Below, piece after piece: positions 2,944 to 18,101 of a stretch of DNA of 40,117 nt (position 1 is the stretch's first letter; each line of letters opens with the position of its first letter). This DNA comes from a virus (Duplodnaviria; Caudoviricetes). A model generated the notes under the pieces. It saw only the letters and a list, made by a program, of their open reading frames with translations. It did no database searches and was not told the origin of the DNA. The stretch is from the IMG/VR virus record IMGVR_UViG_3300033067_001922, positions 1 through 40,117 of that record, one strand, 5' to 3'. The translations under genes were made by a program, and so were the position numbers.

Positions 2944-3008
2944 TGAAGATTTCAGCCTACACGACCACTCGAAACTGCGAGGAGATCCTTACTTGTTGGC
3001 ATGGATAA
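2943..3008 (+). pseudogene. Orphaned original 5' end of the downstream glycosyltransferase (MKISAYTTTRNCEE...)
   Basis: The 21-aa ORF MKISAYTTTRNCEEILTCWHG matches the N-terminus MKFKISAYTTVRNAIS of 3636..4658. Its ATG overlaps the upstream stop codon (TGATG). Confidence 0.75.
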
Positions 3009-3639
3009 GGCATTTTTTGTGCAACGCTATGTAGTTGAAGGCAAATCATATTCTGAGATAGCCAAGGAACTTGGTTGGAGCAAGTCATCTGTCGGATATT
3101 ACCTGAAAAAGTATGACATCCAACTTGCAGATCACAAAGTTCGGCAACGGGAAAAAACATTGCGTGGCGAGAACCACCCAATGTTTGGAAAACCAGGCAC
3201 ATTGACTGGCCGCCACCATTCGGATGAAACTAAGAAGAAAATTGGCGCTGCACATTTAGGAGTTCCAGAGCCGCCTGTCAGTGAAGAGACTCGGAAGAAG
3301 CTCTCGGCCGCGCAAAAAAAGCGGCCGAGAAAACCTGACTCTGAACGTAAAACACCCTTGTATAGGGCTGTCCGAATTTTGCCTGAGTACAAGATGTGGC
3401 GTACAATGGTGTATGAACGAGATGGCTATACTTGCCAGGAATGTCAAACCCGTGGTGGCGAGCTGAACGCAGATCATGTTGTAGCATTGTCTGCCATTAT
3501 GAGAACTTACAACGTGAAGACAGTAACAGATGCTCTTGCGTGCAAAGAATTGTGGGATCTTGACAACGGAGTAACTCTCTGTGTGCCATGTCATAAACGA
3601 ACACCAACTTATGGTGGCGGCTCCAAGGTGAGAAAATGA
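3001..3639 (+). CDS. Free-standing HNH homing endonuclease (N-terminal HTH, NUMOD3-like repeats)
   Basis: KSYSEIAKELG HTH; HPMFGK and HSDETKKKIG repeats; RDGYTCQEC...LNADHV...NGVTLCVPCH HNH core. Confidence 0.9.
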   Translation: MDKAFFVQRYVVEGKSYSEIAKELGWSKSSVGYYLKKYDIQLADHKVRQREKTLRGENHPMFGKPGTLTGRHHSDETKKKIGAAHLGVPEPPVSEETRKKLSAAQKKRPRKPDSERKTPLYRAVRILPEYKMWRTMVYERDGYTCQECQTRGGELNADHVVALSAIMRTYNVKTVTDALACKELWDLDNGVTLCVPCHKRTPTYGGGSKVRK

Positions 3640-4658
3640 AATTCAAGATTAGTGCTTATACGACTGTACGAAATGCCATTTCGATGGACTATCCCTTTGT
3701 GGAGTCTATTCGGTCCATGCTTCAGTTCGCCGATGAGGTCGTTGTCCTCGATACCAGCGATGGGGAGGATGGAACTCCAGAGAGGTTGGAGTCCTTGGCC
3801 AAGGAGGATTCCAGAGTAAAGGTTCTCCACGGGAACAAGCTCTTCGACTGGACAGCTCCGAACCACGGCATCTTCGATGGACAAACCAAGGCCATGGCTC
3901 GTGCTGCTTGCACCGGTCAATTCCTTTGGCAGTTTGACGTGGATGAGCTTGTTCATGAGAAGGACGCTCCCAACATCAGGAAGATTATCGAAGGCAGCAA
4001 GTACCTTCAAGGAGCACCGATCCTTGCCCTCCCAGTGGTCGAGTATTGGGGCCGACAGGGTAAGGTGAGGGTGGACATCAATCCATGGAAGCCTCGCCTC
4101 TCCAAGAACCTTCCTGACATTACCCATGGCATCCCGAAGCACCTTCGAAGGAAGTTCGATGGCTTGGATTATGCTTCCCCTGGGACCGACACATGCGACT
4201 ACATCTCAAAGGCAAGCGGCAACCCGCTTCCAGTCATTGGTTTTGTCCCTGAGCAGATTGAGCAGCTTCGCCGAGGAAGCTTTGTCAACCCAAAGCTCGC
4301 TGAGCCTTACGGACGTTGGTACAACTCAGTGATCAACCAACTCCCAGGTGTCTTCCATTACTCTTGGTTCAACATTGAACGCAAGATCAGGCAGTACAAG
4401 CTCTTCTGGACTGATTTCTGGAAGGCAATGTACGGTCCCGACTCCACTCAGAACAAAGACCCCAACTGGAATCCCTTCTTTGAGGTCCCTTGGTCTGAAG
4501 TCACCGATGAGATGATCAAAGCCAAGGCGGAAGAACTGGAGACAAAGACCGGAGGTCACATCTTCCACACAAGGTGGGCTGGTCAGGTAACTCCGCACGT
4601 CAAGATCAACCGAGAGCACCCGGCTTTGATCAAGGAGTGGGTGAAAGCACATGGATGA
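3636..4658 (+). CDS. Glycosyltransferase, GT-A/GT2-like
   Basis: ISAYTTVRN, ADEVVVLDTSDGEDGT, WQFDVDE (DxD) and GVFHYSW. Confidence 0.85.
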   Translation: MKFKISAYTTVRNAISMDYPFVESIRSMLQFADEVVVLDTSDGEDGTPERLESLAKEDSRVKVLHGNKLFDWTAPNHGIFDGQTKAMARAACTGQFLWQFDVDELVHEKDAPNIRKIIEGSKYLQGAPILALPVVEYWGRQGKVRVDINPWKPRLSKNLPDITHGIPKHLRRKFDGLDYASPGTDTCDYISKASGNPLPVIGFVPEQIEQLRRGSFVNPKLAEPYGRWYNSVINQLPGVFHYSWFNIERKIRQYKLFWTDFWKAMYGPDSTQNKDPNWNPFFEVPWSEVTDEMIKAKAEELETKTGGHIFHTRWAGQVTPHVKINREHPALIKEWVKAHG

Positions 4659-4812
4659 GAACATCCCGGAAGTGAACATCGTTTTCGAGGGCCCACCAGT
4701 TCCCAAAAAGTTGAAAATTAAGCGGTCTGGCCTTCTTGAAAAAAGAAATCCATTCCGTCGCACTCTGTTGGCCTACTCGGTCTGGCTGAGATATGTACGA
4801 AGCAATCCCTGA
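4651..4812 (+). CDS. PFRxT-tag mini-protein 1 (53 aa; capsid-like IPEVNI segment)
   Basis: Not in the ORF track. Translates as MDENIPEVNIVFEGPPVPKKLKIKRSGLLEKRNPFRRTLLAYSVWLRYVRSNP and overlaps both neighbours. Confidence 0.7.
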   Translation: MDENIPEVNIVFEGPPVPKKLKIKRSGLLEKRNPFRRTLLAYSVWLRYVRSNP

Positions 4813-5011
4813 GATCACCATTGATCTTACCACTGTAGAAGCCCCAAAGAGGAAAATCAGGGCTATATGGGGTCCTTCACTGTTTGATGATTTGTACTGG
4901 GTGCACCGTGCTTGGCTAGCAGGTCCATTCCGTCGTACTGTCTTGATTCCAAGGCTCAAAGATGAAAAACCCATTTCGCATGACCTGCATTCGGATCAAG
5001 ACGGTGTATAG
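4793..5011 (+). CDS. PFRxT-tag mini-protein 2 (major-capsid-like segment)
   Basis: IPEITIDLTTVEAPKRKIRAIWGPSLFDDL followed by GPFRRTVL. Confidence 0.75.
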   Translation: MYEAIPEITIDLTTVEAPKRKIRAIWGPSLFDDLYWVHRAWLAGPFRRTVLIPRLKDEKPISHDLHSDQDGV

Positions 5012-5156
5012 TCAGATGAGCAACCTTCTGATGAAGTCTAGAAGCATCGGCATAAGCGCCACCCTCGCTAGGCTGATGATGTTGCAGTCGTCGGGATCAC
5101 GAAGAGAACGCAGGTTGTGGCTCAAGCAAGTAAGAAGACGAAAAAGGCTGAAATGA
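4962..5156 (+). CDS. PFRxT-tag mini-protein 3 (tag at N-terminus; terminase Walker-A-like segment)
   Basis: MKNPFRMTCI followed by NLLMKSRSIGISATLARLMML. Confidence 0.7.
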   Translation: MKNPFRMTCIRIKTVYSQMSNLLMKSRSIGISATLARLMMLQSSGSRRERRLWLKQVRRRKRLK

Positions 5157-5359
5157 CAAACAACAACAGCTTCACGAAATTCCAGTTCCCGATTATTAAG
5201 AGGGTCTTTCCTTCTCTCGGCGATTTGTTTGTTCGAAAGGCCAAAAACCCCTTTCGATTCACCTGCTTGAGACCTGATGTGTTCCTTCACCGTGATTCTC
5301 CAGCCATACTTCTCACAAAAGACATGTTCCAACTTCTGAAGTGTGAGATTTCCCTGTGA
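5153..5359 (+). CDS. PFRxT-tag mini-protein 4 (major capsid N-proximal, Gol-region-like segment)
   Basis: ATGA overlap with the previous stop; SFTKFQFPIIKRVFPSL followed by NPFRFTCL. Confidence 0.75.
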   Translation: MTNNNSFTKFQFPIIKRVFPSLGDLFVRKAKNPFRFTCLRPDVFLHRDSPAILLTKDMFQLLKCEISL

Positions 5360-5589
5360 AAACTCTTTCAGTGGAGACGCTAAGGGAAATGGCTGTTCAC
5401 CTCTATGGTTCAAATTTGGCTATAGCTGAAACTGAAGTCCCAGTGTTCGTTGAGAGACACGAGGAGTTTCTTCCGGTCATTCGCCCTTTTCGCTTTACAT
5501 GTCTCAGTAATTCCATCAAGGAGAACGCCGTTGGTGAGTTCCTGGAATTCGTTCGGTCCAACTACCGAACCAAGGATGGAAGTGCCTGA
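5356..5589 (+). CDS. PFRxT-tag mini-protein 5
   Basis: GTGA overlap with the previous stop; contains RPFRFTCL. N-terminal part not recognised. Confidence 0.7.
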   Translation: MKTLSVETLREMAVHLYGSNLAIAETEVPVFVERHEEFLPVIRPFRFTCLSNSIKENAVGEFLEFVRSNYRTKDGSA

Positions 5590-5660
5590 AGAGGGAGCTA
5601 TCCAAATATGTCGCCCCAAGAAATTCTCAAGCGTCGCATAGGAAAGACGAAGATAAAGGT

Positions 5661-6428
5661 ATGTCAGAAACAACCTCCCCAGCCGAAGAGGCTACTGATT
5701 CAGTTGTCACAAGTCCTCGGATCACTGTTGTGGTGCCTTGCTACAATCATGGACGGTATCTCCGAGAAGCTACGGAAAGTCTGATCGCTCAGACCTACAA
5801 GAACCTGGAGATCATCATTGTCAATGATGGCTCATCGGACAATACCGCTGAGGTTGCCCGAGAGCTGGTCAAGGAAGATCCAAGAGTCAGGTTCATCAAC
5901 TTCTCCGAGAACAAGGGGAAGTGGTTCTGCTTGAACACAGCGATCGAGCAGAGCACCGGTTTGATCATCACCTCCCAGGACGCCGATGACATTGCTCTTC
6001 CCAATAGGATTGAGCGCCAGTTCATGGCGATGCAGTTCACAGAGAGCGTCCACAATCTCTGTGGGTTCCATCACTGCCGTTCCGAGGCCGAAGTTGAGGC
6101 TCTCAAGAGTACAGTGGTTGAAGGGGAGCTCAAGGGAATTGACTCCGAGAACGTGGCCAAGATGGTTGAATACGGATTCTCCACAAAGGGAATCAACCAC
6201 TACTTCACCGCCGAGTTTGAAACGGCGGGAACATCTGCTATGTTCCTGAAGGCGATCTGGAACATTGGTTTCCGTTTCAACCCACCTGGAGTGGGCTTGA
6301 GGGTTACAAATTCCGAGGATTCGGACTTCAACATCCGAGTTACCTTGGCTTTGAGGAATACCAGCGTTCTCGCTGAGCAGCTCTACCTCTACAGAAGATG
6401 GACGGGCACAAACAACGAGAGTAAGTGA
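5661..6428 (+). CDS. Glycosyltransferase family 2
   Basis: ITVVVPCYNHGRYL, IIIVNDGSSDNT, QDADD and EDSDF motifs. Confidence 0.92.
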   Translation: MSETTSPAEEATDSVVTSPRITVVVPCYNHGRYLREATESLIAQTYKNLEIIIVNDGSSDNTAEVARELVKEDPRVRFINFSENKGKWFCLNTAIEQSTGLIITSQDADDIALPNRIERQFMAMQFTESVHNLCGFHHCRSEAEVEALKSTVVEGELKGIDSENVAKMVEYGFSTKGINHYFTAEFETAGTSAMFLKAIWNIGFRFNPPGVGLRVTNSEDSDFNIRVTLALRNTSVLAEQLYLYRRWTGTNNESK

Positions 6429-6429
6429 A

Positions 6430-6711
6430 ATGCTACAATACGACGAGCAAACTCTAACGTCTTACGGATGGGCACCCTTTGCTCAGGTCTTCGGTGAACT
6501 CCCTGGCTTGGAGCAGGAACTACAGCAGTTCGTGCATGAACGACTGACACAAGAAACTGCTCGCAGGATCACTGAGGTCACTCAGAACTACCTCGATAGA
6601 GCAATGCTAAGCATGCACCTCCATCCTAGCGGTCCTCGTCCCAAACTGGAGTTCTGGAATCCACCCGGCACCAGTTCGATGATTTTGGTTGTGAAAACAG
6701 GAAGAAAATGA
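6430..6711 (+). CDS. Hypothetical protein, weak resemblance to a tail-sheath C-terminal segment
   Basis: 93-aa ORF coupled to both neighbours; contains QQFVHERLTQETARRITEVTQNYLD. Confidence 0.55.
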   Translation: MLQYDEQTLTSYGWAPFAQVFGELPGLEQELQQFVHERLTQETARRITEVTQNYLDRAMLSMHLHPSGPRPKLEFWNPPGTSSMILVVKTGRK

Positions 6712-6944
6712 GCAATTCAACTCTCCCTCCTGTGCCAACCCATCCACCCCTGCGTAGCTGCTGGAGACACTTCAAGGGCAACGTCTACATCGTATCGGAC
6801 ATTGCTCGGGACTGTGAGGAGCCAGGGAGGTTCCTCGTGGTTTACCGAAGCATGAAAGGCGATGTTTGGGTTCGTCCCCTTCCTGACTTTCTTGGAACTC
6901 ACGGAAGCGGCGTTCCGAGATTTGAACAAATCACGCGTCCGTAG
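6708..6944 (+). CDS. DUF1653-family protein
   Basis: WRHFKGNVYIV...ARDCE...VVYR...VWVRP...F...RF signature. Confidence 0.85.
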   Translation: MSNSTLPPVPTHPPLRSCWRHFKGNVYIVSDIARDCEEPGRFLVVYRSMKGDVWVRPLPDFLGTHGSGVPRFEQITRP

Positions 6945-6982
6945 TTCCGGTTCCGAACCGTCAAGTGACATAATTACCGTGG

Positions 6983-8689
6983 ATGCCAAGTCTATCGAAA
7001 TTCTTTGAATGGTACTCGAACCAAGAGCTCCAGGAACGCCAGCGTGGGGAAAAGCTTGGCTTGCCCAAGGTCGATCGAGCAGCGATGATCAATTCGTACG
7101 CCAAGTACGGATACGTCGCCCATTTTGGGGACCTTCAGGGCAGTGGCGACCGCTTTTCGAACGACCGCTATGTTTCCAAGCATGAGTTCAGGTGGAACAC
7201 ACCATCTGGTGTCTATGGGTACCCACTTGATTTGATGGCTGACAACGTCATTAAGAATGCCGTCCCATTCGCAGCAGAGTCTCCGTACATCTACATCCTC
7301 AAGGTTCATCACCCTGAAAAGCTCTTGAACTTGCGGGAGTACGACGACCCAGAACTTGCTACTGACTTGGAAAAGCTCAAGGGCATGTTTGATCCTGAAA
7401 AATTTGCTGAGACCACCAAACGTTTTCGGAATTACAACGCCCCCGAGCAGATCGTGTACATGACCAACACCCTAAGTGGAATGAATCCACATAAGTGGTC
7501 CTCCATTCTGAGGAAACTTGGGTATGTCGGGATTTACGATCCAGAGTATGGCATTGTTCACGAAAACGAACCAACTCAAGTGGTCCTCTTTGGACCCGAT
7601 GTGTTCGAAGTGGTTGACAAAATTGAAAACAACCCCGGAAGTCAAGAAAGGAACTACGAGCTGGCATCTTCCCCCAGCACTGATGCACGCACGCTAGCCA
7701 AACTTGCGTCACTCCAGGATGGGGAATTGAGTAGTTTGATTGCCAAGAATCCGAACGCCAACGAGCGAACTCTCAGGAAGATTTTCTCCGACTTCGCTTG
7801 GCCTGGGGTGGCCATGAGTCTTTTGATTAACCCGAAGCTACCAGCAGACATGATCGAACCTGCTATAGCTGTGTTGGAAAAACGCCCCGATTTGATTTCT
7901 GGCGTTGCCAGAAGTGCAGTTTCTCAAAAGGTAATCCAAGCCTTGCTTGCTAGGAACAACCATAACATCAATTCCAGTTTGGTAGGAAATCTAAACATCC
8001 CGGACGCTACAGTCGCAGGCTTGTTTCAAGTCGGGCCTATCACTTGGGACTTTATGGCAGAATTGTCTTCTAGGCCAAAAATCTCACCACAGTTGTATCA
8101 GATGGTGTGGCCGTCACTATCCCCCAAGAACAAGATAAACATTGCCTTCCGAGATGATTTTCCTGTTCTTGCAGACGATCAGAAAACGCTAAGCACGTAC
8201 TTTCATGATGTACTTGCTGCTGCAACTGAACCTGTTGATTACGCGAGCATTCTCCGAAAGGAAAAGTTGCCAGTAGAAGCTCTTATGCAAATTGCAGTGA
8301 AAGTGCAAAGCAACACCTCGTGGAACGTTCACCAACTCAAACAAGTTTACGAGCCAATGTTTGAACAAGAGAACGCCACCGAGGTCATTCGAGCTCTTGT
8401 TAACTCTGCGCCCGAACTCGTCAAAACACTTATGGCTTCTTCCGATCAAACACCAGTGGACGTGTTGGAGCAACTTGCTACAGGGAACAACATGGATTTG
8501 CTCTACGCCCTCGTGTACAACTCGAAGTCAACCCCTAAGATTTTCCAAGCAATTCTGTCGAAGCCTCTACCAGAGAATCCAGACGATCAAAGCGTCTTGA
8601 AACTTGCCCAAAAGGCGGCAGCTCGTAAGTTGGGTGTTGCTCCTCCGCTTACGGAGAGCTTGGTGAACTTCTACACCAGACTTTACTAG
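6983..8689 (+). CDS. Putative virion-associated protein: ADP-ribosyltransferase-like N-terminal domain plus helical (LRV/HEAT-like) repeats
   Basis: TPSGVYGYP...VPFA...ILRKLGYVGIYD...HENEPTQVVLF, then repeats such as LASSPSTDARTLAKLA, IAKNPNANERTL and LVYNSKSTPKIF. TAATTA lies 6 nt upstream. Confidence 0.6.
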   Translation: MPSLSKFFEWYSNQELQERQRGEKLGLPKVDRAAMINSYAKYGYVAHFGDLQGSGDRFSNDRYVSKHEFRWNTPSGVYGYPLDLMADNVIKNAVPFAAESPYIYILKVHHPEKLLNLREYDDPELATDLEKLKGMFDPEKFAETTKRFRNYNAPEQIVYMTNTLSGMNPHKWSSILRKLGYVGIYDPEYGIVHENEPTQVVLFGPDVFEVVDKIENNPGSQERNYELASSPSTDARTLAKLASLQDGELSSLIAKNPNANERTLRKIFSDFAWPGVAMSLLINPKLPADMIEPAIAVLEKRPDLISGVARSAVSQKVIQALLARNNHNINSSLVGNLNIPDATVAGLFQVGPITWDFMAELSSRPKISPQLYQMVWPSLSPKNKINIAFRDDFPVLADDQKTLSTYFHDVLAAATEPVDYASILRKEKLPVEALMQIAVKVQSNTSWNVHQLKQVYEPMFEQENATEVIRALVNSAPELVKTLMASSDQTPVDVLEQLATGNNMDLLYALVYNSKSTPKIFQAILSKPLPENPDDQSVLKLAQKAAARKLGVAPPLTESLVNFYTRLY

Positions 8690-9372
8690 AAGGACTTAGC
8701 AACGAAGTCTTTGATCTTCTGGACGTGCTCACCGCTTACGTTGCCAAGGATCGTTCTCACAGACTGAGTTCCAGCGTAATCCTTGGAATACCAGCCTTCA
8801 CCTGGGAAGTTCTTCTTGGTTGGGTGGTGCCCGTGCCACTCGAAGTTCGAGTTGAACACCCTGCGTCCAAGGAGCATGAGAACCGCTTCTTGGCTGGAAA
8901 CCACCGGAACCCCTCTGGAGATGAAGAAGGCAGCGGCTTGGTCAGGAAGTTCCGCCCACCAGTTGGGCCTTCCCAGGATGTCTTTGATTGCCTTCATCAG
9001 GAAGCCCTTGCCAGCAGGGGAGCCATCGGAAGCAAAGACGGAAACCTTGACGCTTCCATTCCTTGTTGTTGAAGCAAAAGCAGCACTCCTGATCTTGCCT
9101 TCTTTGTCAAGGGCGGGGTTGTTGAAAAACCAGTAGTCGTAGTTGTCCAGAGCTCCAGGGGATGATACGTTCATGTGCCCGCCAACATCTCCGTAAGCGG
9201 AGTTGATGAGCTTGAACAGTTCAGATCGAACTTCATCAGCAAGTTCTGAATCTGGAGAGATTTCGATCATCTCTGGCTTTCCCTCAAAGGGGCTTGGTGT
9301 TGCATTGAGCTCAGGTTCAACTGGCTCATTTTCGAGCAACAACCAAGAGTAGTATTCGTACAATGTCCGCAT
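8686..9372 (-). CDS. Hypothetical protein (possible degenerate GNAT-like fold)
   Basis: Start reassigned to ATG 9372 (MRTLYEYYSWLLLENE), 5 nt after TATTTA. Contains LFKLINSAYGDVGG. Converges on 6983..8689 with a 4-nt overlap. Confidence 0.65.
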   Translation of the reverse strand: MRTLYEYYSWLLLENEPVEPELNATPSPFEGKPEMIEISPDSELADEVRSELFKLINSAYGDVGGHMNVSSPGALDNYDYWFFNNPALDKEGKIRSAAFASTTRNGSVKVSVFASDGSPAGKGFLMKAIKDILGRPNWWAELPDQAAAFFISRGVPVVSSQEAVLMLLGRRVFNSNFEWHGHHPTKKNFPGEGWYSKDYAGTQSVRTILGNVSGEHVQKIKDFVAKSF

Positions 9373-9418
9373 AGGGCTAAATAGCCCAAAGTGATCAACA
9401 AGAAAGAAGTTCAGCAAT

Positions 9419-10120
9419 ATGAAGATTTCACTTTTGTGTCCAACCCGTTCTCGCCCCCATGCAATGCAGCGCCTTTGGGAGTCTGCGTGGGAGACAGCCG
9501 ACGACAAGGCGAACCTGGAGATCGTCTTTTACATGGACAAGGACGACTTCCACTCCCACCGCCAGTTTGAGAAGATGGATTCTCCTCAACACTACGGAAT
9601 CATTGGGGAGCGAATCGTCCTCTCCGAGATGTGGAACGAGTGCCAGAAGATCGCCACGGGCGAGGTCTACATGCACTGCGGGGATGATATCATTTTCCGT
9701 TCCAAGGGTTGGGACACCTTGGTTCGTGAGCACATGAATCGCTACCCCGACAAGATTGTCTTCGTCCACGGAATGGACGGCATCCAGAACGAACGCCTTG
9801 GAACCCACGGCTTCCTTCACAAGAACTGGGTGGAGACGATCGGTTACTTCGTTCCACCGTACTTCTCCTGCGACTACAACGATACGTGGCTGACAGATGT
9901 GAGCTCGATGATTGGCCGTAGGATCTACGAGCCCAAGATTTACACCGAGCACATGCATTGGGCAGTTGGGAAGCAGCCCAGGGATCAAACCTACACAGAC
10001 ACCATCGCCAGAGGCCAGCGCGACGGCGTGACGGCCATGTACGAGTCCATGCTCCCCAAGCGCCAGGAAGACGCCAGGAAGCTCCAGGAGTTCATCAAGA
10101 GCTGCGAGGTATCCAAGTGA
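9419..10120 (+). CDS. Glycosyltransferase, GT2-like
   Basis: ISLLCPTRSRP, EIVFYMDKDD, MHCGDDIIF and YNDTWL. Confidence 0.85.
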   Translation: MKISLLCPTRSRPHAMQRLWESAWETADDKANLEIVFYMDKDDFHSHRQFEKMDSPQHYGIIGERIVLSEMWNECQKIATGEVYMHCGDDIIFRSKGWDTLVREHMNRYPDKIVFVHGMDGIQNERLGTHGFLHKNWVETIGYFVPPYFSCDYNDTWLTDVSSMIGRRIYEPKIYTEHMHWAVGKQPRDQTYTDTIARGQRDGVTAMYESMLPKRQEDARKLQEFIKSCEVSK

Positions 10121-10206
10121 CTTGGCTTGAACTCTACCGCCTCAATCACCCTCAGAACGCCATGAAGTACGGCATCCTGTGTCCGTACATCCGATTGGTG
10201 ATGTGA
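10117..10206 (+). CDS. 29-aa mini-ORF
   Basis: GTGA overlap upstream and TGATG overlap downstream; MTWLELYRLNHPQNAMKYGILCPYIRLVM. Confidence 0.45.
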   Translation: MTWLELYRLNHPQNAMKYGILCPYIRLVM

Positions 10207-10529
10207 TGTTGAAACACTACACCCTGATCTATTCCCGTGGGGAACCAAAAATTGCTCTAGACCTCTTTGAAGAAGAGCTCAAGCGCAAGGGCTCAATTTT
10301 CGAGACCGACACGGAGTTCCATGTTTGGGTCGACAACGACGACCATGCTACAGCGAAGGAGTTCTACTCCTTTCGGAAGTACATTCGGAAGGGTCTGAAG
10401 ATCAAGCTCTACATCAACCCACCTCGGTCAAACCAAGAGGTTTGGGACTTTTTGATGAACCAGCTTGGCTCAAACATTCAGATCAACAACGTTTCCCGTG
10501 AAGTTATCTACGCCTCGGAGAGTGCATGA
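10206..10529 (+). CDS. Hypothetical protein
   Basis: ATG 10206 overlaps the previous stop, and the ORF ends overlapping the radical SAM start. Confidence 0.65.
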   Translation: MLKHYTLIYSRGEPKIALDLFEEELKRKGSIFETDTEFHVWVDNDDHATAKEFYSFRKYIRKGLKIKLYINPPRSNQEVWDFLMNQLGSNIQINNVSREVIYASESA

Positions 10530-11581
10530 AACGCCTGACAGTTATCCAAGAAGGTGCTCCAGCGCCCACAAAGCCAGTGAGCTACGAGAAGCAGACGCAA
10601 GCCTACTCCACCTGGGGAGGCAAGCTCTTGCAACACACAGACGTGCTGCACTCCATCCAGGCAAAGAAGGAGTTCAAGCCAATCACCATCCAACTTGCTC
10701 CAACGGAAGCTTGCGACTCCAACTGTCCGTTTTGCTCGGTTGCCTGGAGACCTGTGGACAAGAAGATTCCCTGGGACACCCTTGAGAAGGGCTTGAGGGA
10801 GTTCCGGGAGCTTGGAGCCAAGTCCGTGGAAATCACAGGCGGTGGAAACCCTCTCCTTTACAAGGATGGTTCCAGGAACATCAACGATGTGATCGAGCTG
10901 GCCCATTCCCTTGGGTACGAGATTGGTGTGATTACCAACTCCGAGAAGCTCTCTCGGCATATCAAGCCAGAGAATGCCAGCAAGCTCTCTTGGATCAGGA
11001 TTTCCTTGATCAAGCTTGACGAAGGAAAGCACCCGGAAGATTACGACTTTTCAGGTTTCCCTGTGGAGAAGCTTGGATTTTCCTACATCATCTATGAGGG
11101 AACTACCAAGAAGTCCATCGAGAGCATCGCAAGGCTTGTGGAGCTCAACCCCGAGATCAAGTTCGTCCGTATTGCTTCGGACTGCCTTACCGAGCAATCC
11201 CTGACGATCAAGGGGGATTGGGGCGATATCGTGCAGGCAATGGACACCCACAAGAAGTTCTTCATCAAGGAGATCGGGGAGACCTTCCATCCCTATGAGG
11301 GTGGCTGCTGGGTTGGCATGGTAAGGCCGTATTGGGTTTGGGACGGGGTGTACATGTGCACCTCCCATGTTCTCAAGCACAGGGGCTACCATGACACCTG
11401 GAAGCTCTGTAAGGGCGATGAGATCAAGGAAGCCTGGGGCAAGATGAACCAGCGCTTCCAGGCCGGTCAGAACCCTTACGACATCGACATCCAGAAGGAG
11501 TGCTGGCACTGTTACTACTACAACAATAACCGGCTCCTGTCCGATGTGATCACGGAACTGCCAGACAGGAATTTCGCATGA
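10526..11581 (+). CDS. Radical SAM enzyme with C-terminal Cys (SPASM/twitch-like) cluster
   Basis: CDSNCPFC (CxxxCxxC), ITGGGNPL, ITNS, and C-terminal CWVG...YMC...CWHCYY. Confidence 0.92.
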   Translation: MKRLTVIQEGAPAPTKPVSYEKQTQAYSTWGGKLLQHTDVLHSIQAKKEFKPITIQLAPTEACDSNCPFCSVAWRPVDKKIPWDTLEKGLREFRELGAKSVEITGGGNPLLYKDGSRNINDVIELAHSLGYEIGVITNSEKLSRHIKPENASKLSWIRISLIKLDEGKHPEDYDFSGFPVEKLGFSYIIYEGTTKKSIESIARLVELNPEIKFVRIASDCLTEQSLTIKGDWGDIVQAMDTHKKFFIKEIGETFHPYEGGCWVGMVRPYWVWDGVYMCTSHVLKHRGYHDTWKLCKGDEIKEAWGKMNQRFQAGQNPYDIDIQKECWHCYYYNNNRLLSDVITELPDRNFA

Positions 11582-11760
11582 CGGATTCCTCTGATACTTC
11601 GTGGATGGAAGAGCAGCTCGCCAAAATATTGGCCGCTGAAATAAAGAATGCGATGGTTCGAAAGCTCAGCGAGACCTATGAGTGCTATTTGGCACAAAGA
11701 AGGAAATCACCATTTAGGATGACTTGGGTCAAAATCCGAGAATGCCAACATACCCGTTGA
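11578..11760 (+). CDS. PFRxT-tag mini-protein 6 (capsid spine-helix-like segment)
   Basis: ATGA overlap; EEQLAKILAAEIKNAMVRKL followed by SPFRMTWV. Confidence 0.72.
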   Translation: MTDSSDTSWMEEQLAKILAAEIKNAMVRKLSETYECYLAQRRKSPFRMTWVKIRECQHTR

Positions 11761-11972
11761 CCACAACCATCCCAACGAACGTGGAGTCGATCGCTACAAC
11801 ATCAAGCCTTCCCAAGTTCGAAACGTCGGAATCGCTTTACACACCATATGTGCCCATGCAAGTCACGCCACTTTTTCCTGCGAAGAAGGTTGGCTCTCCT
11901 TTTAGGTTTACCAACCTAAAGCTGATTCCTGTTTTCTCTACAAGAAAGGCGTTTCGGTATGCACAGGGTTAA
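11742..11972 (+). CDS. PFRxT-tag mini-protein 7 (capsid C-terminal-like segment)
   Basis: ETSESLYTPYVPMQVTPLF followed by SPFRFTNL. Confidence 0.72.
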   Translation: MPTYPLTTTIPTNVESIATTSSLPKFETSESLYTPYVPMQVTPLFPAKKVGSPFRFTNLKLIPVFSTRKAFRYAQG

Positions 11973-12093
11973 AGGATCGCCCTTTCTTGAATCTGGGTAC
12001 GTGTTCGCTCCGTACATTCCCAAGCTCGGCTTGATGAGCCCCTTTCGATTCACTTGTCTCAAGATCAAGAAGAAAGAGAAGGCAGTTTGGTGA
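11959..12093 (+). CDS. PFRxT-tag mini-protein 8 (44 aa; capsid C-terminal-like segment)
   Basis: Not in the ORF track. Translates as MHRVKGSPFLESGYVFAPYIPKLGLMSPFRFTCLKIKKKEKAVW. Confidence 0.75.
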   Translation: MHRVKGSPFLESGYVFAPYIPKLGLMSPFRFTCLKIKKKEKAVW

Positions 12094-12245
12094 TAAGCAC
12101 GGGAAGCGGATTTGGCATTTGCTTGACAATCAGCGAAAGCGTGACTATCTCAATCCCTTCGTGGCCCAAGGGCAGTCCGTTTAGGCGGACGTGTTTAACG
12201 ATCAAGAGGTACAATGAGCTCTACTGCAAACCCATACACCGCTGA
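12090..12245 (+). CDS. PFRxT-tag mini-protein 9
   Basis: GTGA overlap; MISTGSGFGICLTISESVTISIPSWPKGSPFRRTCLTIKRYNELYCKPIHR. Confidence 0.65.
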   Translation: MISTGSGFGICLTISESVTISIPSWPKGSPFRRTCLTIKRYNELYCKPIHR

Positions 12246-12819
12246 CTACTACAAGTCCAGCAACTACGCTGACTACCTGGAGCGAGCTGACCGCTACAAG
12301 AAGACAGCCTACGAGCTGGTTGACCTTCTTCGGAAGCTTGGTTTGATCGACAAAGAGAGCTACATCGTTGACTTCGGTTGTGCGGTTGGCTTTCTCCTGG
12401 AGGGGTTTAATGATCATGGTTACCGCGAGGTTGCGGGCTATGACGTATCCGATTGGGCCATTGCTGAGGGCCGCATGCGCGGCAACAACATTACCAAGTG
12501 GGACGACACCGTTCAGTGTGCCAGGAGGGTAAGTGCTCTTACGGCACTCGATGTTTTCGAGCACATGGAGGATGACGAGATCAGGAGGATGCTGAAAGTC
12601 CTCGAACCGGAGTGCATGGTCCTGAGAATCCCCACTTCGGTGGATGGTGGAAAAACTTTCGCCCTGGAGGTTTCTCGTCAGGACCCGACCCATATCAATT
12701 GCAAGACCAAAGAGCAGTGGATCGACTTTTTGCGTGATTGCGGCTATGGTATCTGTTTGAAGCTGAATCTCTTCACGGTTTACGACACGCCAGGGGTGAG
12801 TTGTTTTTTGGCACTCTAA
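12214..12819 (+). CDS. Class I SAM-dependent methyltransferase
   Basis: IVDFGCAVGFLL motif I, GYDVS, ALDVFEHM and DPTHIN. Confidence 0.9.
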   Translation: MSSTANPYTADYYKSSNYADYLERADRYKKTAYELVDLLRKLGLIDKESYIVDFGCAVGFLLEGFNDHGYREVAGYDVSDWAIAEGRMRGNNITKWDDTVQCARRVSALTALDVFEHMEDDEIRRMLKVLEPECMVLRIPTSVDGGKTFALEVSRQDPTHINCKTKEQWIDFLRDCGYGICLKLNLFTVYDTPGVSCFLAL

Positions 12820-12846
12820 ACCTCCCCTGTGCTCGTACTTACATAC

Positions 12847-13653
12847 ATGAAGTTTCACTACAACGAACACTCCCTGAAATCCGGTATCTACAAGATCCTG
12901 AATACTCACACCAATCGCATCTACATTGGACAGGCGAAGGAATTCAAAGAACGTTGGAAAGCTCACGCTAGTTCACTGCGGTTAGGCAAACACAAAAACA
13001 GTTTTCTTCGAGCTGACTTCAATAAGTGCAAGGGGGATCTTGGGCACGACGACTTCCTTGAGTTCCATGTCCTGGAGGTGCTGGAAGGATCTACCAGGGA
13101 AGAACGAAACAAGAGGGAAGAGTGGTGGATTGCCCAAACTCTCATTAATTGGCAGTGCTACAATTTCGAGCTCAAGCCATCCAAATCAGAACAGAGCATT
13201 TGGTCTCGCTCACCCGAACAAACTCGTCAAAGAAGATCGCAGGCCCACAAAGGCAAACACTATTCTCCCGGCACAGAGCTTTCAAAGGGAGAGGATCATC
13301 CTGGGTTCGGCAAACCTCTTTCTGAGGAAACTAAGCAGAAGTTGAGTTTGGCCAACAAAGGCAAGCATAACCCCACTGAAGCAACCAGAGAGCTTATCCG
13401 TCAAGCTAATTTGGGCTCGAACAATCCCAATTTTGGCAAACGGAAATCCGACATCACGAAAGCCAAGATGAGTCAGGCTCATTCTGCAAGAAAGAAAGCT
13501 GTTATTCAACAAACTCTTCATGGCGAAGTAGTGCATGTTCACGCAAGCATCATGGAAGCCTCCCGCGCCACCAACGTAAACCATTCCAGTATTATTGCTT
13601 GCTGTCGTGGCCGTCTTCGATCTGCTGGCGGATTTAGATGGATGTACTCATAG
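12847..13653 (+). CDS. GIY-YIG homing endonuclease (NUMOD3 repeats, C-terminal NUMOD1-like HTH)
   Basis: SGIYKILN...IYIGQA...RW..H; SEETKQKLS; SIMEASRAT...CCRG...SAGGFRW. ATG 12847 lies 5 nt after TACTTA. Confidence 0.92.
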   Translation: MKFHYNEHSLKSGIYKILNTHTNRIYIGQAKEFKERWKAHASSLRLGKHKNSFLRADFNKCKGDLGHDDFLEFHVLEVLEGSTREERNKREEWWIAQTLINWQCYNFELKPSKSEQSIWSRSPEQTRQRRSQAHKGKHYSPGTELSKGEDHPGFGKPLSEETKQKLSLANKGKHNPTEATRELIRQANLGSNNPNFGKRKSDITKAKMSQAHSARKKAVIQQTLHGEVVHVHASIMEASRATNVNHSSIIACCRGRLRSAGGFRWMYS

Positions 13654-13725
13654 AGAAGTCTACTTTGCTTGCCTTCTGAGTATCGTTGAATTTGGTACAC
13701 AATATCTGCTTTCTGCTCTCAGAAG

Positions 13726-14073
13726 ATGGGACAAGAAAAGCAGATGTTCTACAGGCCCAACCCATATAGCCCTATCGCTAACACCGATAGCAAGACAGTT
13801 GGCGAACTGATTATTGAGTTGGGGGAGAAACTCAAGGATGGTTCGGTAACGTACAAGCAAGCCGTGGAGTTCTTCCAAGCCCACAAGATTTGCTTCCCCA
13901 ACGAGCGCACTGGAATGCTTTCCAGTGATTGGCGTGAGCCGGAGGCGGATTACAACAAAGCCGTCTTCACTTGCGTTATTTCCTGTTCGTGCGGCTGTGG
14001 CCCAATGGACGAGGGTTGCAACCAGCTTGGTCCTGGCTCCAAGCCAAAGTACGATTTTACCTTCAAGAAGTGA
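13726..14073 (+). CDS. Hypothetical protein with Cys-rich C-terminus
   Basis: 115-aa ORF containing CVISCSCGCGPMDEGC. Confidence 0.6.
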   Translation: MGQEKQMFYRPNPYSPIANTDSKTVGELIIELGEKLKDGSVTYKQAVEFFQAHKICFPNERTGMLSSDWREPEADYNKAVFTCVISCSCGCGPMDEGCNQLGPGSKPKYDFTFKK

Positions 14074-14085
14074 GGAGACAAGAGA

Positions 14086-15387
14086 ATGAAGATCGGTTTC
14101 ATGGGGCTCGGCAAATTGGGTTTGCCATGCGCACTGGCATCGGAGCATGCAGGTCACGAGGTTGTGGGTTATGACCCAAACCCTGCGGTCAAGGATTACA
14201 TCAGGGACAAGAAGATCCCCTACCGTGAGGAAGGCACGCCAGAGCTGCTTCAGAACACCAAGATCAGGGTGGTTTCCGTCCAAGAGATGGTTGACTTCTC
14301 GGATTTGATCTTTGTGGCTGTTCAGACGCCACACAACCCACGTTTCGAGGGAACGACAAGGATTCCAGAGGAGAGAGTCGACTTTGACTACTCCTACCTC
14401 ATTGGAGCTTGCAAGGAGTTGAATGCAGCGATCGAGAAGAAGGGCAAGGATACCCCTGTTGTGGTCATCTCCACGGTCCTTCCTGGGACAATGGACTCCC
14501 AGGTGATCCCTCACCTCGGCCCACACTTCAAGCTCTGCTACAACCCATTCTTCATTGCAATGGGTACGACGAGATACGACTTCACACACCCTGAGTTCGT
14601 TCTCTTTGGGATGAGTGACGAGAAGACGGCTGACCTTGCAGAGAGCTTCTACAAGACGATTCACAATGCTCCGTTCTATCGTTGCTCGATCAAGTCTGCC
14701 GAGTTGATCAAGGTGGCCTACAACACCTTCATCAGCACGAAGATTGCCTTTGTCAACAACCTCATGGAAATTTGCCACCACACGGGCGCAGATGTTGATG
14801 AGGTTACCGATGCCCTGAAGCTGGCAAACGAACGCCTTATCTCGCCGAAGTACCTCTCGGCTGGAATGGGAGATGGTGGTGGATGCCACCCAAGGGACAA
14901 CATTGCCCTTTCCTGGCTCTCCAGGAAGCTTGGAATGACCTTCGACTTCCATGAGGCCATTATGATGGCTCGTGAGAAGCAGACGGACTTCTTGGCCAAT
15001 CTGGTTGAGAAGTACCGCAAGGTTGGCATTTACTCCACAGAAGACTTCACAGTCAAGGAGTACAGAACTCTTCCTGTTGTCATCCTCGGCAAGGCATTCA
15101 AGGAGCAGACCAACCTTGAAGTTGGTTCTCCTGCAATCCTCCTGAAGAATATTCTTGCGGAGCGTGGGATTGAAGCGGAGATGTACGATCCGTGGATTGA
15201 CCCATGTGAGGACAAGACGGTGAATCCTTACGAGAAGGGTGAAGCGAAGCTCTTCTTCATTGGAACACGTCACGCTGTGTTCAAGGGCTACAAGTTCCCC
15301 GTTGGTTCAACGATTCTTGATCCTTGGGCCTTGATCGACAAGGCAGCTCATCCAGGTTGCCGCGTCATTCACATCGGTAGGGTGTGA
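14086..15387 (+). CDS. UDP-glucose/GDP-mannose dehydrogenase family protein
   Basis: GLGKLG Rossmann motif, FVAVQTP, STVLPGT, AELIKVAYN, catalytic GGGCHPRD and GKAFK. Confidence 0.93.
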   Translation: MKIGFMGLGKLGLPCALASEHAGHEVVGYDPNPAVKDYIRDKKIPYREEGTPELLQNTKIRVVSVQEMVDFSDLIFVAVQTPHNPRFEGTTRIPEERVDFDYSYLIGACKELNAAIEKKGKDTPVVVISTVLPGTMDSQVIPHLGPHFKLCYNPFFIAMGTTRYDFTHPEFVLFGMSDEKTADLAESFYKTIHNAPFYRCSIKSAELIKVAYNTFISTKIAFVNNLMEICHHTGADVDEVTDALKLANERLISPKYLSAGMGDGGGCHPRDNIALSWLSRKLGMTFDFHEAIMMAREKQTDFLANLVEKYRKVGIYSTEDFTVKEYRTLPVVILGKAFKEQTNLEVGSPAILLKNILAERGIEAEMYDPWIDPCEDKTVNPYEKGEAKLFFIGTRHAVFKGYKFPVGSTILDPWALIDKAAHPGCRVIHIGRV

Positions 15388-15406
15388 TTCGCGTTTAGCA
15401 GGGGGA

Positions 15407-15412
15407 TAATTA
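15407..15412 (+). promoter_or_regulatory. Representative TAnTTA putative late promoter (-10-like)
   Basis: TAATTA 5 nt before ATG 15418. The same motif recurs before 12 other starts (see findings). Confidence 0.6.
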
Positions 15413-15417
15413 CTTCC

Positions 15418-16224
15418 ATGAAATTGGCAAATTTCTGGAAGTGGATTCTAAGGGAGTCCAGCAACGAGCTGTCCTACTACGGTCTTGATCAGTTCGTTGC
15501 AGGGAAGCCCATGGTTCTCTACCACGGAACCACCTCGGAGCTAACTTCCTTTGACATCAACAAGTCCCGGAAGGAACTCGTTGACAAGTTCACGGGTGTT
15601 GGGATCTTCCTAACACCTTCAAAGAAGGTAGCTTGGGACTACGCAACGAGCTCCAGGAACAAGGGGTTTCCAGAATCCCTTGTTGGCGACCTGAAGAAGG
15701 TGAACAAAGGAGCAGGGGAATTCCTGGAGTTCCTTGTGAAACACGGTCAACCCGGCTGGGAATTGTTTTGGAAGAAACACAACCTCATGAGGGATAACCC
15801 ACCACCAGGAGAAGGCCAGCTCGACACGGAGCGGTTCAAGTCAATCCTTGGGGACGTTGATCCCAATACCATCATGGACGTTGCCCAGCACGTCATTGGA
15901 ACGGCCTACGAATCTCCAAAAGGTGATGACAACGGACTGCTCGATCTTTTTGGTGGCACTTCCAGTGGAACCCCGGACTGGCTCTATGCCAGCTTGGACG
16001 AGCTTGGGCTTGACTCGTCCCGATACCGTCCAAAGGTCTATAAGGTATCAGCCCACGGGACCAGGGTTTTGGTGACCTCCAACCAAGAAGAAGCCAAAAG
16101 CGCCTTTGCCAATGGCTATGATGCCTTCGTTTTCACAGGAGAAGACTTGGTTGGTGGAGTTCCTGAAGTGGCAGTGTTGGATGGTTCACAGGTAAACATT
16201 TTGGACGTTCAGGTGGACTCATAG
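15418..16224 (+). CDS. ADP-ribosyltransferase-like protein (YHGT...GIFLT type)
   Basis: VLYHGT...FD, GVGIFLTPSKKVAWDYA, VYKV, GYDAFVF and EVAVLD. Confidence 0.7.
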   Translation: MKLANFWKWILRESSNELSYYGLDQFVAGKPMVLYHGTTSELTSFDINKSRKELVDKFTGVGIFLTPSKKVAWDYATSSRNKGFPESLVGDLKKVNKGAGEFLEFLVKHGQPGWELFWKKHNLMRDNPPPGEGQLDTERFKSILGDVDPNTIMDVAQHVIGTAYESPKGDDNGLLDLFGGTSSGTPDWLYASLDELGLDSSRYRPKVYKVSAHGTRVLVTSNQEEAKSAFANGYDAFVFTGEDLVGGVPEVAVLDGSQVNILDVQVDS

Positions 16225-16228
16225 CCAC

Positions 16229-17038
16229 ATGAACACTGTCGCAGTTTACCGAGTCCTCTACGGAGAGGACTTCATCAAGGAATCTATCGAGTCCATCCTC
16301 CCGCATGTAGATCATGTGTACGTTGTCAAAGCCGAAAAGCCCTGGGGACACACCCTCGGCGTGACTTACAAGGGTCAATGGGTTGACTGGCCCGAGAAGT
16401 TCGACAACACACGGGAAAAGATCGCCGAACTCAACAGTGAAAAGGTGACGATCATCAACGATTACTGGCCGACACCCAGGAATCAACTCACCCACATCGT
16501 GAATGACTTGATCCTCCCTCGATGCAAGCCAGACAGCGTGGTATTCATCGAACCCGATCACGTCTTCACAAAGGAACAAGCCGAAGCAGCGTTCACTTGC
16601 TGGGGACTCTATTCCGGCGTACAGGCTTCAACCAAGCAGATTGAACTCTGGAGAACACCGGCCTTTGCTGTGCCTGAAAGGCCCAGGAGAACGTCCGTTG
16701 TCTTCCATAGGATCTTTGGACAGAGGATGGGGGAGACAGGCTTCAATGGGGCTTCTGAGGGCATTCACAGGCTTCCTGCCACAGTGCACAACCTTGGTTT
16801 CTGCCTTTCCGAGAAGACGATGTACTGGAAGCACCTCACTGCGTTGGCCTTCTCCAGGATTGTTGGTGATTCACCTCCAAACGAGGATTGGTACGAGTCA
16901 AAGTGGTTGAATTGGGACTTCAAGACCAACAACCAAAACTTGGAAATCTCCCTTGGTTACGAGTGGATGATCCCCCATGCTGAGCCTTACGACACTTCCA
17001 AGCTGCCAGAAAGCATTCGGAAGCGATACGGCTACTAG
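16229..17038 (+). CDS. Glycosyltransferase-like protein (GT-A)
   Basis: AVYRVLYGEDFIKESIESILPHVDHVYVV, FDNT, FIEPDHV and VHNLG. Confidence 0.7.
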   Translation: MNTVAVYRVLYGEDFIKESIESILPHVDHVYVVKAEKPWGHTLGVTYKGQWVDWPEKFDNTREKIAELNSEKVTIINDYWPTPRNQLTHIVNDLILPRCKPDSVVFIEPDHVFTKEQAEAAFTCWGLYSGVQASTKQIELWRTPAFAVPERPRRTSVVFHRIFGQRMGETGFNGASEGIHRLPATVHNLGFCLSEKTMYWKHLTALAFSRIVGDSPPNEDWYESKWLNWDFKTNNQNLEISLGYEWMIPHAEPYDTSKLPESIRKRYGY

Positions 17039-17046
17039 TTAGCCAT

Positions 17047-18048
17047 ATGGCGGAAGACTTGACTAAGTTCCTAGAGGACGTTGCGCGTGCTGAAGTTGAT
17101 AAACTCAAGCCGCTTTACGGAAGCAACTTTCGTTACGACCTTGATCGCTTCACTCAAGAAGAAAATGGGTTGTCGCTGTACGGGGTGCACTACTCGCAAA
17201 ATGAAAATTTTGCCATCTTCCCACAAACTGGATATTACCCAAAAGGCGTCTACTTCTACTTCCTTTCCAACACCTGCGAGGCTGGAAAGGGAACTGGATT
17301 TGCAACTGATCGAAAGTGGGCAAATATCGGCAAGATCAACAATGATCGGATGCTGATTATCAAGTCGGGACACCCGCGAAACTTCTCTGAGGCTGACTAC
17401 AAAAAAGCAGTCTCCAAATTGAAACGTATTGTGCGGAAACTTCCAGAGCCAACGATCAAGCCTGGAGAGCATAGGGAACAATCGGTTCCAGCCGTACAAC
17501 TCTTCAACCTCCTACATGCTATTGAAGCCAGCGGAAAGGGGTTGACAAACAAGATACTCCATTCTCTCGGGTATGATGGAGTCGTCGACTACGACGGCGC
17601 TTTGCTGCCTGTTGAGAGTTGCCAAGGAGTGATGACTTGGCCTGGGAGCTTCTCTTTTGTTCATTCCATTCCTACTCCGCGCGCATCAAACAATCCAGGA
17701 TATGATCCAATGAAAAGGATCGCACGGATGCAGGCCGGATTGAAGGCTATGAAGCCCGGAACATTGAAGCTGTCCTTTGATGAGCTAGAAAGCTGGAAGA
17801 TGATGAAGCCGAAAACAAGCGGAAATCCGTATGCGTTCGGTGATTTGCTACAGTATTTGCTAACAGCTTTGGATTTCCGCAGTGGGGATGCTTGGAAGTG
17901 GGTTGAATGGTATGAATACGGCGAAAGAAACTATGACAGCCTAGAACAGAACCCAACAACACCGAAAGAGTTCTGGGAGAGAAACATCTACGCCACCGAT
18001 CCAGGACTAAGAATGGCAGCTCGCGACCACACTGGTTTCAATAAGTAG
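17047..18048 (+). CDS. Paralog of the N-terminal ART-like domain of 6983..8689
   Basis: YPKGVYFY...GFATDRKW...ILHSLGYDGVVDYDG...ESCQGV parallels the blocks in the 6983 protein. Confidence 0.6.
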   Translation: MAEDLTKFLEDVARAEVDKLKPLYGSNFRYDLDRFTQEENGLSLYGVHYSQNENFAIFPQTGYYPKGVYFYFLSNTCEAGKGTGFATDRKWANIGKINNDRMLIIKSGHPRNFSEADYKKAVSKLKRIVRKLPEPTIKPGEHREQSVPAVQLFNLLHAIEASGKGLTNKILHSLGYDGVVDYDGALLPVESCQGVMTWPGSFSFVHSIPTPRASNNPGYDPMKRIARMQAGLKAMKPGTLKLSFDELESWKMMKPKTSGNPYAFGDLLQYLLTALDFRSGDAWKWVEWYEYGERNYDSLEQNPTTPKEFWERNIYATDPGLRMAARDHTGFNK

Positions 18049-18101
18049 CGATCATACATTCCCCCTTTTGACCATGAGACTTGGCCGAAAAGGATCAAAG
18101 A

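What the first reader, a model, noticed from the sequence alone, without database searches (positions are those of the whole stretch)
4651..12245. Two arrays of tagged mini-proteins built from fragments of capsid and terminase: candidate new decoy or interference system
Seen in the sequence: nine 44-77 aa overlapping ORFs in two blocks (five at 4651-5589, four at 11578-12245). Each carries one copy of a tag: NPFRRTLL (4747), GPFRRTVL (4922), NPFRMTCI (4968), NPFRFTCL (5246), RPFRFTCL (5482), SPFRMTWV (11707), SPFRFTNL (11895), SPFRFTCL (12037), SPFRRTCL (12174). Tag codons vary synonymously (Pro cca/ccc/cct/ccg, Phe ttc/ttt, Arg cgt/cgc/cga/agg), so selection is on the peptide, not the DNA. 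From recalled family consensus: six variable parts resemble different conserved blocks of gp23-type major capsid proteins, and one resembles the terminase Walker A. Established: capsid and terminase are triggers for host sensors (Lit/Gol, CapRel, Avs). Inference: a modular 'epitope + common tag' library, acting as decoys or inhibitors of host pattern-recognition defences, or as dominant-negative poisons of competing phage assembly, with the tag docking on a shared partner. I know no described system with this architecture.
Basis: partly seen in the sequence, partly recalled or inferred. Interest (0 to 1): 0.95.

Follow-up and report, generated by a model that had tools for sequence, protein, structure and literature searches.

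The report
Shuffled capsid-piece mini-genes with shared tag
An uncultured phage keeps two fast-changing clusters of nine tiny overlapping genes in which one short conserved peptide tag is joined to swappable pieces, six of them resembling its capsid protein, and these likely act as decoys against bacterial immune sensors.

Summary
Confirmed and extended. Nine coupled 44-77 aa ORFs each carry PFRxTxL (9 found; 0.07 expected). Tags change only synonymously between strains (7 of 7 changes). Four ORFs match a profile of related gp23-type capsid proteins directly, two only through alleles or counterparts, one matches the terminase Walker A weakly, two have no source. Six close relatives carry arrays at the same gene junction, empty in 22 of 22 distant loci; most use a second tag, LRKAGLK, that aligns in the same register. 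Modules swap at the tag (a 281-bp tag-to-tag deletion; three N/C combinations of one gene). Two distant 310-kb phages graft the same capsid pieces onto other carriers. The pieces map to T4 gp23's Gol region, spine helix and three-fold P-domain contacts. Best reading: a shuffled library of capsid/terminase mimics against host sensors (0.45); poisoning rival assembly is the main rival (0.25). No expression, partner or function shown. Nine literature searches found no description. This scan noted the same design earlier on other genomes.

The parts
4651..4812 (+). A1, 53 aa: drifted piece of the capsid P-domain strand (gp23 about 249-266) + tag at 4750
   Evidence: Does not pass the capsid profile itself; allele P0010 (5.1 bits, 0/100) and G001 counterpart (12.8 bits, 0/100) do; overlaps upstream gene by 8 nt
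4793..5011 (+). A2, 72 aa: capsid P-domain basic strand and short acidic helix (gp23 about 249-280) + tag at 4925 + unassigned tail
   Evidence: 14.7 bits, 0/100 shuffles; E 0.024 among 53,032 segments; mapping
4962..5156 (+). A3, 64 aa: tag at 4971 (N-terminal) + terminase Walker-A-like piece + basic tail
   Evidence: 3.7 bits, 0/100 shuffles at the Walker A columns; not significant genome-wide; same piece in G001
5153..5359 (+). A4, 68 aa: first half of the capsid Gol-equivalent region + tag at 5249
   Evidence: 6.0 bits, 0/100 shuffles; alignment to T4 gp23; ATGA coupling
5356..5589 (+). A5, 77 aa: two unassigned parts joined at the tag (5485); a mosaic
   Evidence: P0013 shares tag+tail only, P0154 shares head+tag only; no match to capsid, terminase or portal profiles
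11578..11760 (+). B1, 60 aa: drifted capsid spine-helix piece (gp23 about 287-308) + tag at 11710; hypervariable middle
   Evidence: Allele P0014 0.2 bits (1/100), counterparts 5.6-12.7 bits (0/100); dense block of differences at 11641-11696 in 4 of 4 runs laid
11742..11972 (+). B2, 76 aa: capsid P-domain strand/P-loop piece of the Q-V-T-P type + tag at 11898
   Evidence: 6.5 bits, 0/100 shuffles; type not found in 69 clade capsid proteins
11959..12093 (+). B3, 44 aa: capsid P-domain strand piece (gp23 about 438-454) + tag at 12040
   Evidence: 19.8 bits, E 7e-4 among 53,032 segments; many alleles
12090..12245 (+). B4, 51 aa: unassigned part + tag at 12177
   Evidence: GTGA coupling; no source found
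3636..4658 (+). 340-aa gene upstream of array A (glycosyltransferase-like by recalled motif; no PHROG hit)
5661..6428 (+). Glycosyltransferase downstream of array A
   Evidence: PHROG 841, E 8e-16
10526..11581 (+). Radical SAM gene upstream of array B
   Evidence: PHROG hits E 7e-5
12214..12819 (+). Methyltransferase downstream of array B
   Evidence: PHROG 27380, E 6e-12

Best explanation
The nine genes are a shuffled set of mini-proteins that join one conserved tag to short, diverged copies of the most conserved capsid (and probably terminase) motifs, and they likely act as decoys that occupy host sensors of these virion proteins. Shown: real coupled ORFs, protein-level conservation of the tag, capsid origin of the pieces, insertion at formerly coupled gene junctions, rapid change of the pieces, exchange of modules at the tag. 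Inferred: they are co-expressed with the surrounding modification operon; each piece binds a sensor that reads a short capsid or terminase motif without activating it; the tag is a docking or carrier module for a common partner and, because it recurs every 100-300 bp, also the crossover point that reshuffles the panel as hosts change sensors.
For: Pieces come from capsid, terminase Walker A and, in relatives, portal, proteins that are established triggers (PMC13581612 abstract and Discussion). They cover the Gol-equivalent region (PMC3014915 passage) and the P-domain sheet and spine helix, the surface CapRel is modelled to contact (PMC9712102 passage). Likeness to capsid is at protein level only: third positions of identical residues agree 75 of 154 times with the own or nearest capsid gene and 135 of 310 with other genes (hand sums). 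Between near-identical strains the tags change silently (7 of 7) while other positions change mostly amino acids (11 of 14; hand count, p about 0.001), often to other capsid-like residues. Both an own-type and an other-phage-type version of one motif occur in this lineage. The same pieces recur on unrelated carriers in G014 and G018. DSAD1 shows that a phage mimic can block a sensor (PMC10973363 abstract).
Against: No host, partner, expression or activity is shown; contigs of one RNA run cover array B but cannot show transcription. Avs7/8/10 wrap the whole fold (3,700 square angstroms, mainly A-domain), which a 20-45-residue piece is unlikely to fill. The one known linear-motif case works the other way: free Gol peptide activates Lit. 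The same conserved motifs are also the assembly contacts, so their choice does not separate decoy from poison. A1 and B1 have drifted below detection, A5 and B4 have no source, the terminase match is weak. Pairwise dN/dS between orthologous mini-genes was not obtained.
Confidence: 0.45

Rival explanations
1. The pieces poison head assembly or packaging of co-infecting related phages: each would insert into a folding or assembling capsid subunit, the tag blocking further growth or recruiting an effector.
For: Pieces map to the quasi-three-fold contacts, P loop and scaffold/portal-contact N-terminus where T4 head-length mutants cluster. In longer relatives the tag is inserted at the P-loop turn (spacing 33-47 in 9 tagged proteins against 25 in true capsid ends). 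B2 and pieces of G002, G003, G008 and L168 carry a Q-V-T-P-type motif found in 0 of 69 clade capsid proteins but in 71 of 98 untagged short hits.
Against: G001 and alleles P0008/P0012 carry the own-type motif, which should poison self. The comparison set was picked with a profile holding the Q motif, and the Q state may be ancestral. A 20-residue Walker A piece is a poor packaging poison (inference).
Confidence: 0.25
2. The minis tune the phage's own head morphogenesis (timing, size, chaperonin or EF-Tu load).
For: Same mapping to length-determining contacts; coupled inside a conserved operon next to tail genes; Gol binds EF-Tu.
Against: Capsid proteins of the close relatives are 85-89% identical while the arrays are unalignable at DNA level, differ in content and are absent from the junction in 22 of 22 distant loci: too labile for a core role.
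Confidence: 0.1
3. Only the tag has a function (or the array is a selfish, self-duplicating junction module) and the capsid pieces are decaying passengers.
For: Mostly non-synonymous change outside the tags; drifted A1 and B1; unassigned A5 and B4; several tagged minis of L168 without a source; homing endonucleases at these junctions in G004 and G008.
Against: Pieces keep 40-65% amino-acid identity with third positions near random; the same few motifs recur with three different carriers; allele changes in B3 stay capsid-like.
Confidence: 0.15
4. The minis are precursor peptides for the neighbouring radical SAM, methyltransferase and glycosyltransferases, the tag being the recognition sequence.
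For: Both arrays sit between such enzymes.
Against: The same enzymes are directly coupled without any mini-gene in 22 of 22 distant loci; a further tagged mini lies beside a DHFR-like gene in G006 and G007.
Confidence: 0.05

Closest known systems
T4-type major capsid protein gp23 (Pfam PF07068; PDB 8t9r, 6uzc, 5vf3) and paralogue gp24
   Same: The pieces derive from its conserved motifs; relatives' minis reach the Pfam cut-off.
   Different: 20-60-residue excerpts joined to a foreign tag, in arrays outside the head module; no fold predicted.
Gol peptide of T4 gp23 with Lit protease and EF-Tu (PMC3014915, passages read)
   Same: A4 and the third-locus mini of G006/G007 copy the two halves of the equivalent region; a short capsid peptide is the active unit.
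   Different: Gol is part of the capsid protein and triggers defence; here stand-alone, tagged genes kept by the phage.
DSAD1, anti-DSR2 of SPbeta-like phages (PMC10973363, abstract read)
   Same: Small phage protein that mimics a virion trigger and would block its sensor, the proposed mode of action.
   Different: One protein against one sensor; no array, tag or shuffling described in the abstract; mimics tail tube.
CapRel-SJ46 and Avs7/8/10 capsid sensing (PMC9712102 passages; PMC13581612 abstract, passages, Discussion)
   Same: Candidate targets; CapRel is modelled on the P-domain sheet and spine helix, the elements copied here.
   Different: Host systems; the passages read describe no phage decoy made of capsid pieces.
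Capsid-interference proteins of phage satellites (SaPI Ccm/CpmAB, P4 Sid, PLE TcaP; recalled, no call)
   Same: Interfere with another phage's head assembly; Ccm is recalled as a capsid homologue.
   Different: Folded proteins of satellites, not short tagged excerpts in a large phage.

Membership tests
gp23-type major capsid protein (PF07068) | Sequence homology to the family | tested here: met
   Local only: 4 of 9 window minis pass a clade profile; none hits Pfam itself; relatives' minis do
gp23-type major capsid protein (PF07068) | Full-length HK97 fold able to build a shell | tested here: not met
   44-77 aa against 637 aa; the longest relative mini is predicted unstructured but for the tag helix, pTM 0.21
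Large terminase | Walker A segment | tested here: inconclusive
   Position-specific, 0/100 shuffles; E 23 or worse genome-wide
Trigger-mimic anti-defence proteins (DSAD1-like) | Resembles a virion trigger | tested here: met
Trigger-mimic anti-defence proteins (DSAD1-like) | Binds and blocks a host sensor | not testable with these tools
   Host and sensor unknown
CRISPR-like repeat-spacer array or RNA decoy | DNA-level repeats of fixed length with spacers matching target DNA | tested here: not met
   No repeat family; synonymous tag codons; third positions near random against capsid genes
Silent gene-conversion cassettes (vls/pilS type; recalled) | High DNA identity to the expressed gene | tested here: not met
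   Third-position agreement 75 of 154 with own or nearest capsid gene
Diversity-generating retroelement | Adenine-specific variation, template repeat, reverse transcriptase | tested here: not met
   Changes of all kinds, T>C about as common as A>G; no reverse transcriptase hit among 39 window ORFs; the rest of this genome is not held
RiPP precursor array | Precursors travel with the modifying enzymes | tested here: not met
   Enzymes without minis in 22 of 22 distant loci; tagged mini elsewhere
Satellite capsid-interference proteins | Binds or redirects another phage's capsid | not tested
   No complex prediction or assay run

The most novel reading that the evidence does not exclude
Large phages run a protein-level 'repeat-spacer' system: a conserved peptide tag is both the handle for one shared effector and the recombination point for a renewable library of virion epitopes, each of which addresses the effector to a host sensor or to a rival phage's capsid, terminase or portal.
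Probability: 0.2. Interest if true: 0.95.

Novelty: categorically new. Interest (0 to 1): 0.82.

Why it matters
Bacteria are now known to sense most core virion proteins, which phages cannot easily mutate. A shuffled panel of short mimics would be a general viral answer to pattern recognition, and the copied motifs would list which capsid, terminase and portal surfaces are under attack in nature, giving baits to find unknown sensors. If instead they poison rival assembly, they are ready-made peptide inhibitors of gp23-type heads. The genes are tiny and can be synthesised and tested in laboratory strains without culturing the phage.

Tried and rejected
Pfam and PHROG scans of the nine minis: nothing under E 0.04. 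Portal origin of A5, suspected from a recalled motif: no match to a 13-sequence portal profile. Sources for A5, B4 and the tails among 1,247 long segments of related contigs: nothing above shuffle level; Atlas blank for P0013; the representative search for A5 gave only itself and two alleles. Tag as excerpt of the baseplate wedge or another long protein: no conserved hit in 294,130 positions. AlphaFold model of the clade capsid protein unusable, pLDDT 33, so mapping rests on the alignment to T4 gp23; the model of the 100-aa mini showed no hairpin. Own versus foreign capsid could not be told from 69 clade proteins for most pieces. No cultured close relative: best phage-collection matches under 50% identity, one place each in the 40 rows shown. 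GTDB scan gave one irrelevant hit and no host. Promoter scan at chance level. RNA-run contigs cannot show expression. Complex prediction not run: no candidate partner. Pairwise dN/dS of orthologous minis remains open.
Full report
Setting. The window is the whole held record, a 40-kb fragment of a myophage (baseplate wedge genes, five homing endonucleases, a glycosyltransferase-rich operon), estimated 11% complete, without its own capsid, portal or terminase gene. Near-identical DNA stands in activated-sludge, wastewater and freshwater runs. Relatives reach 189 kb (close) and 318 kb (distant), so the genome is likely large. The host is unknown.

Nine + strand ORFs (A1-A5 at 4651-5589, B1-B4 at 11578-12245) each carry one PFRxTxL tag. 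The tight pattern, chosen after seeing the tags, occurs 9 times against 0.07 expected (maximum 1 in 100 simulated windows). The ORFs chain by 4-50-nt overlaps from the upstream enzyme gene onward, 4 of 9 by exact (A/G)TGA coupling. Tags use all four Pro codons and both CGN and AGG for Arg and form no DNA repeat family. Laying contigs of two other runs on 11870-12260 gave 21 differences. By hand count, all 7 inside tags are silent, and 11 of 14 outside change amino acids (hypergeometric p about 0.001; some changes are shared by both runs and two lie in an overlap, so events are fewer). A pairwise dN/dS of orthologous minis was not obtained.

The pieces come from capsid protein. A profile of 68 related capsid proteins searched against 53,032 short six-frame segments (overlapping loci counted more than once) gave 14 distinct segments under E 5: 13 array minis and one 206-aa capsid paralogue. 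Of the window's nine, A2 (14.7 bits), B3 (19.8), B2 (6.5) and A4 (6.0) beat 100 of 100 shuffles; A1 and B1 do not pass, but allele P0010 (5.1 bits, 0/100), allele P0014 (0.2 bits, 1/100) and counterparts in relatives (up to 12.8 bits) do (49 minis tested). A3 aligns on the Walker A columns of a six-sequence terminase profile (3.7 bits, 0/100; the G001 counterpart 4.6 bits), but neither is significant among 43,870 segments: plausible, not proven. A5 and B4 match none of capsid, terminase or portal. Likeness is at protein level: third positions of identical residues agree 75 of 154 times with the own or nearest capsid gene and 135 of 310 times with other genes (hand sums over 11 pieces; G006's gene stands in for G001's and G004's for G008's by inference). 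This rules out recent DNA copies, RNA decoys and conversion cassettes.

Where the pieces lie. Through the alignment to T4 gp23 and residue assignments in PMC9546572 (passages): A1/A2 are the basic P-domain strand and short acidic helix (about 249-280), B1 the spine helix (287-308), B2/B3 the P-domain strand running into the P loop (438-461), A4 the N-terminal region around 94-106. These are the quasi-three-fold and scaffold contacts where head-length mutants cluster. The A4 region is also the Gol equivalent (PMC3014915 passage, gives a 29-residue, most conserved region; the numbering 94-122 is recalled), and the P-domain sheet and spine helix are the modelled CapRel contact (PMC9712102 passage).

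Relatives. Of 28 radical-SAM loci examined (28 of 43 fetched; one truncated and 14 mostly short or duplicate metagenome loci left out), the 6 close ones (79-93%) have inserts after the gene and the 22 distant ones run straight into the next long gene (gap -4, -1 or +1). G001 has both arrays with the same tag, unalignable DNA and pieces of the same capsid regions; its Gol piece and terminase piece share one ORF around one tag, whereas the window has them in two ORFs in reverse order. G002, G004, G005, G008 and L168 use LRKAGLK; G003 has the pieces with at most a degenerate tag. Tags were confined to the two arrays in G001-G005 apart from two stray matches; a third locus exists in G006 and G007. 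Both tags fall in one register, [FLI][RK]x[TA][CG]L[KR][VIL], but matrices of each do not score the other, so common descent is suggested, not shown. Among 115 further proteins from a profile search, 11 carry the LRKAGLK tag by pattern; in 9 measurable ones it widens the P-loop spacing to 33-47 against 25 in true capsid ends. In 2 of 15 more distant records with a capsid match, both over 90% complete, the same pieces are fused to other small carriers; the other 13 are fragments and showed only the capsid gene. In G018 the capsid protein was the only one of 156 long segments with several short excerpts. Untagged portal pieces occur in G002 and G004.

Shuffling. G004 lacks 281 bp present in G008 and the junction lies inside the tag. 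Window A5 shares head+tag with P0154 and tag+tail with P0013. B1's middle is a dense block of differences in 4 of 4 runs, and one contig joins the same flanks across 1,072 other letters. B3 alleles keep both ends and vary the capsid motif conservatively. One motif occurs in an own-clade form (G001, P0008, P0012) and in a Q-V-T-P form absent from 69 clade capsid proteins but common in other phages' (B2, G002, G003, G008, L168; the comparison set is biased and the form may be ancestral).

Mechanism. The selected unit appears to be the epitope; the carrier is replaceable. I commit to decoys against host sensors of virion proteins (0.45): the sources are known triggers, the pieces are too short to fold, and turnover looks like an arms race. 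Against: Avs7/8/10 envelop the whole fold, free Gol activates rather than blocks Lit, and nothing functional is shown. Poisoning rival assembly (0.25), passenger decay around a functional tag (0.15), own-head tuning (0.10) and enzyme precursors (0.05) are the rivals.

Prior knowledge. Nine searches of the held library listed no paper describing tagged capsid-excerpt genes. Seen: PMC13581612 (abstract, passages, Discussion), PMC3014915, PMC9712102, PMC9546572, PMC13728456 and PMC7824862 (passages found by term), PMC10973363 (abstract); all others as listings only. No supplements were read, and most subscription journals are not held, so a description there is not excluded. Earlier AI notes of this scan report the same design on other genomes with other tags, two with LRKAGLK; they are leads, not support; a sequence look-up with B3 found none. 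One led me to the DSAD1 paper.

Verdict. Real, conserved, modular and not found in print: categorically new architecture, function untested. Interest 0.82.

Noticed in passing
L248:502-1659 (G018) and L252, L254 (G014): Two near-complete distant phages fuse the same capsid pieces to the C-terminus of 60-80-residue carriers (SH3-like by weak Atlas leads) instead of a basic tag.
   Followed up: partly
L138:9230 (G002), L030:16829 (G004): Short untagged ORFs with the conserved portal motif (E 8e-6 and 1e-4 among 43,870 segments).
   Followed up: partly
L205:6797-6964 (G006), L207:13511 (G007): Third locus: one PFR-tagged mini with the second half of the Gol-equivalent region, upstream of a DHFR-like gene.
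   Followed up: yes
window 3001-3639, 12844-13653, 26658-27488, 37210-37944, 38973-39755: Five free-standing homing endonucleases at gene junctions; a similar one heads array B in G004 and G008.
   Followed up: no
window 3636-20707: Operon rich in glycosyltransferases, UDP-glucose dehydrogenase, radical SAM and methyltransferase next to baseplate genes; possibly virion or DNA glycosylation (inference).
   Followed up: no
window 15418-16224: 268-aa ORF with an HGT...F-like start that recalls ADP-ribosyltransferase folds (recalled motif; no PHROG hit).
   Followed up: no
window 6983-8689: 568-aa ORF with a repeat-rich helical-looking C-terminal half and no family hit.
   Followed up: no
L043:800 minus (G002); L246, L247, L249: 130-210-aa capsid paralogues covering the middle (A-domain side) of the protein, outside the tagged arrays.
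   Followed up: no
L031 (G004), L279, L285, L287, L288: Overlong terminase (1041 aa) and portal (1468-1601 aa) frames, likely inteins (inference).
   Followed up: no
window 24763-26607: Baseplate wedge holds a short stretch resembling the LRKAGLK tag; it did not pass the tag matrix.
   Followed up: yes
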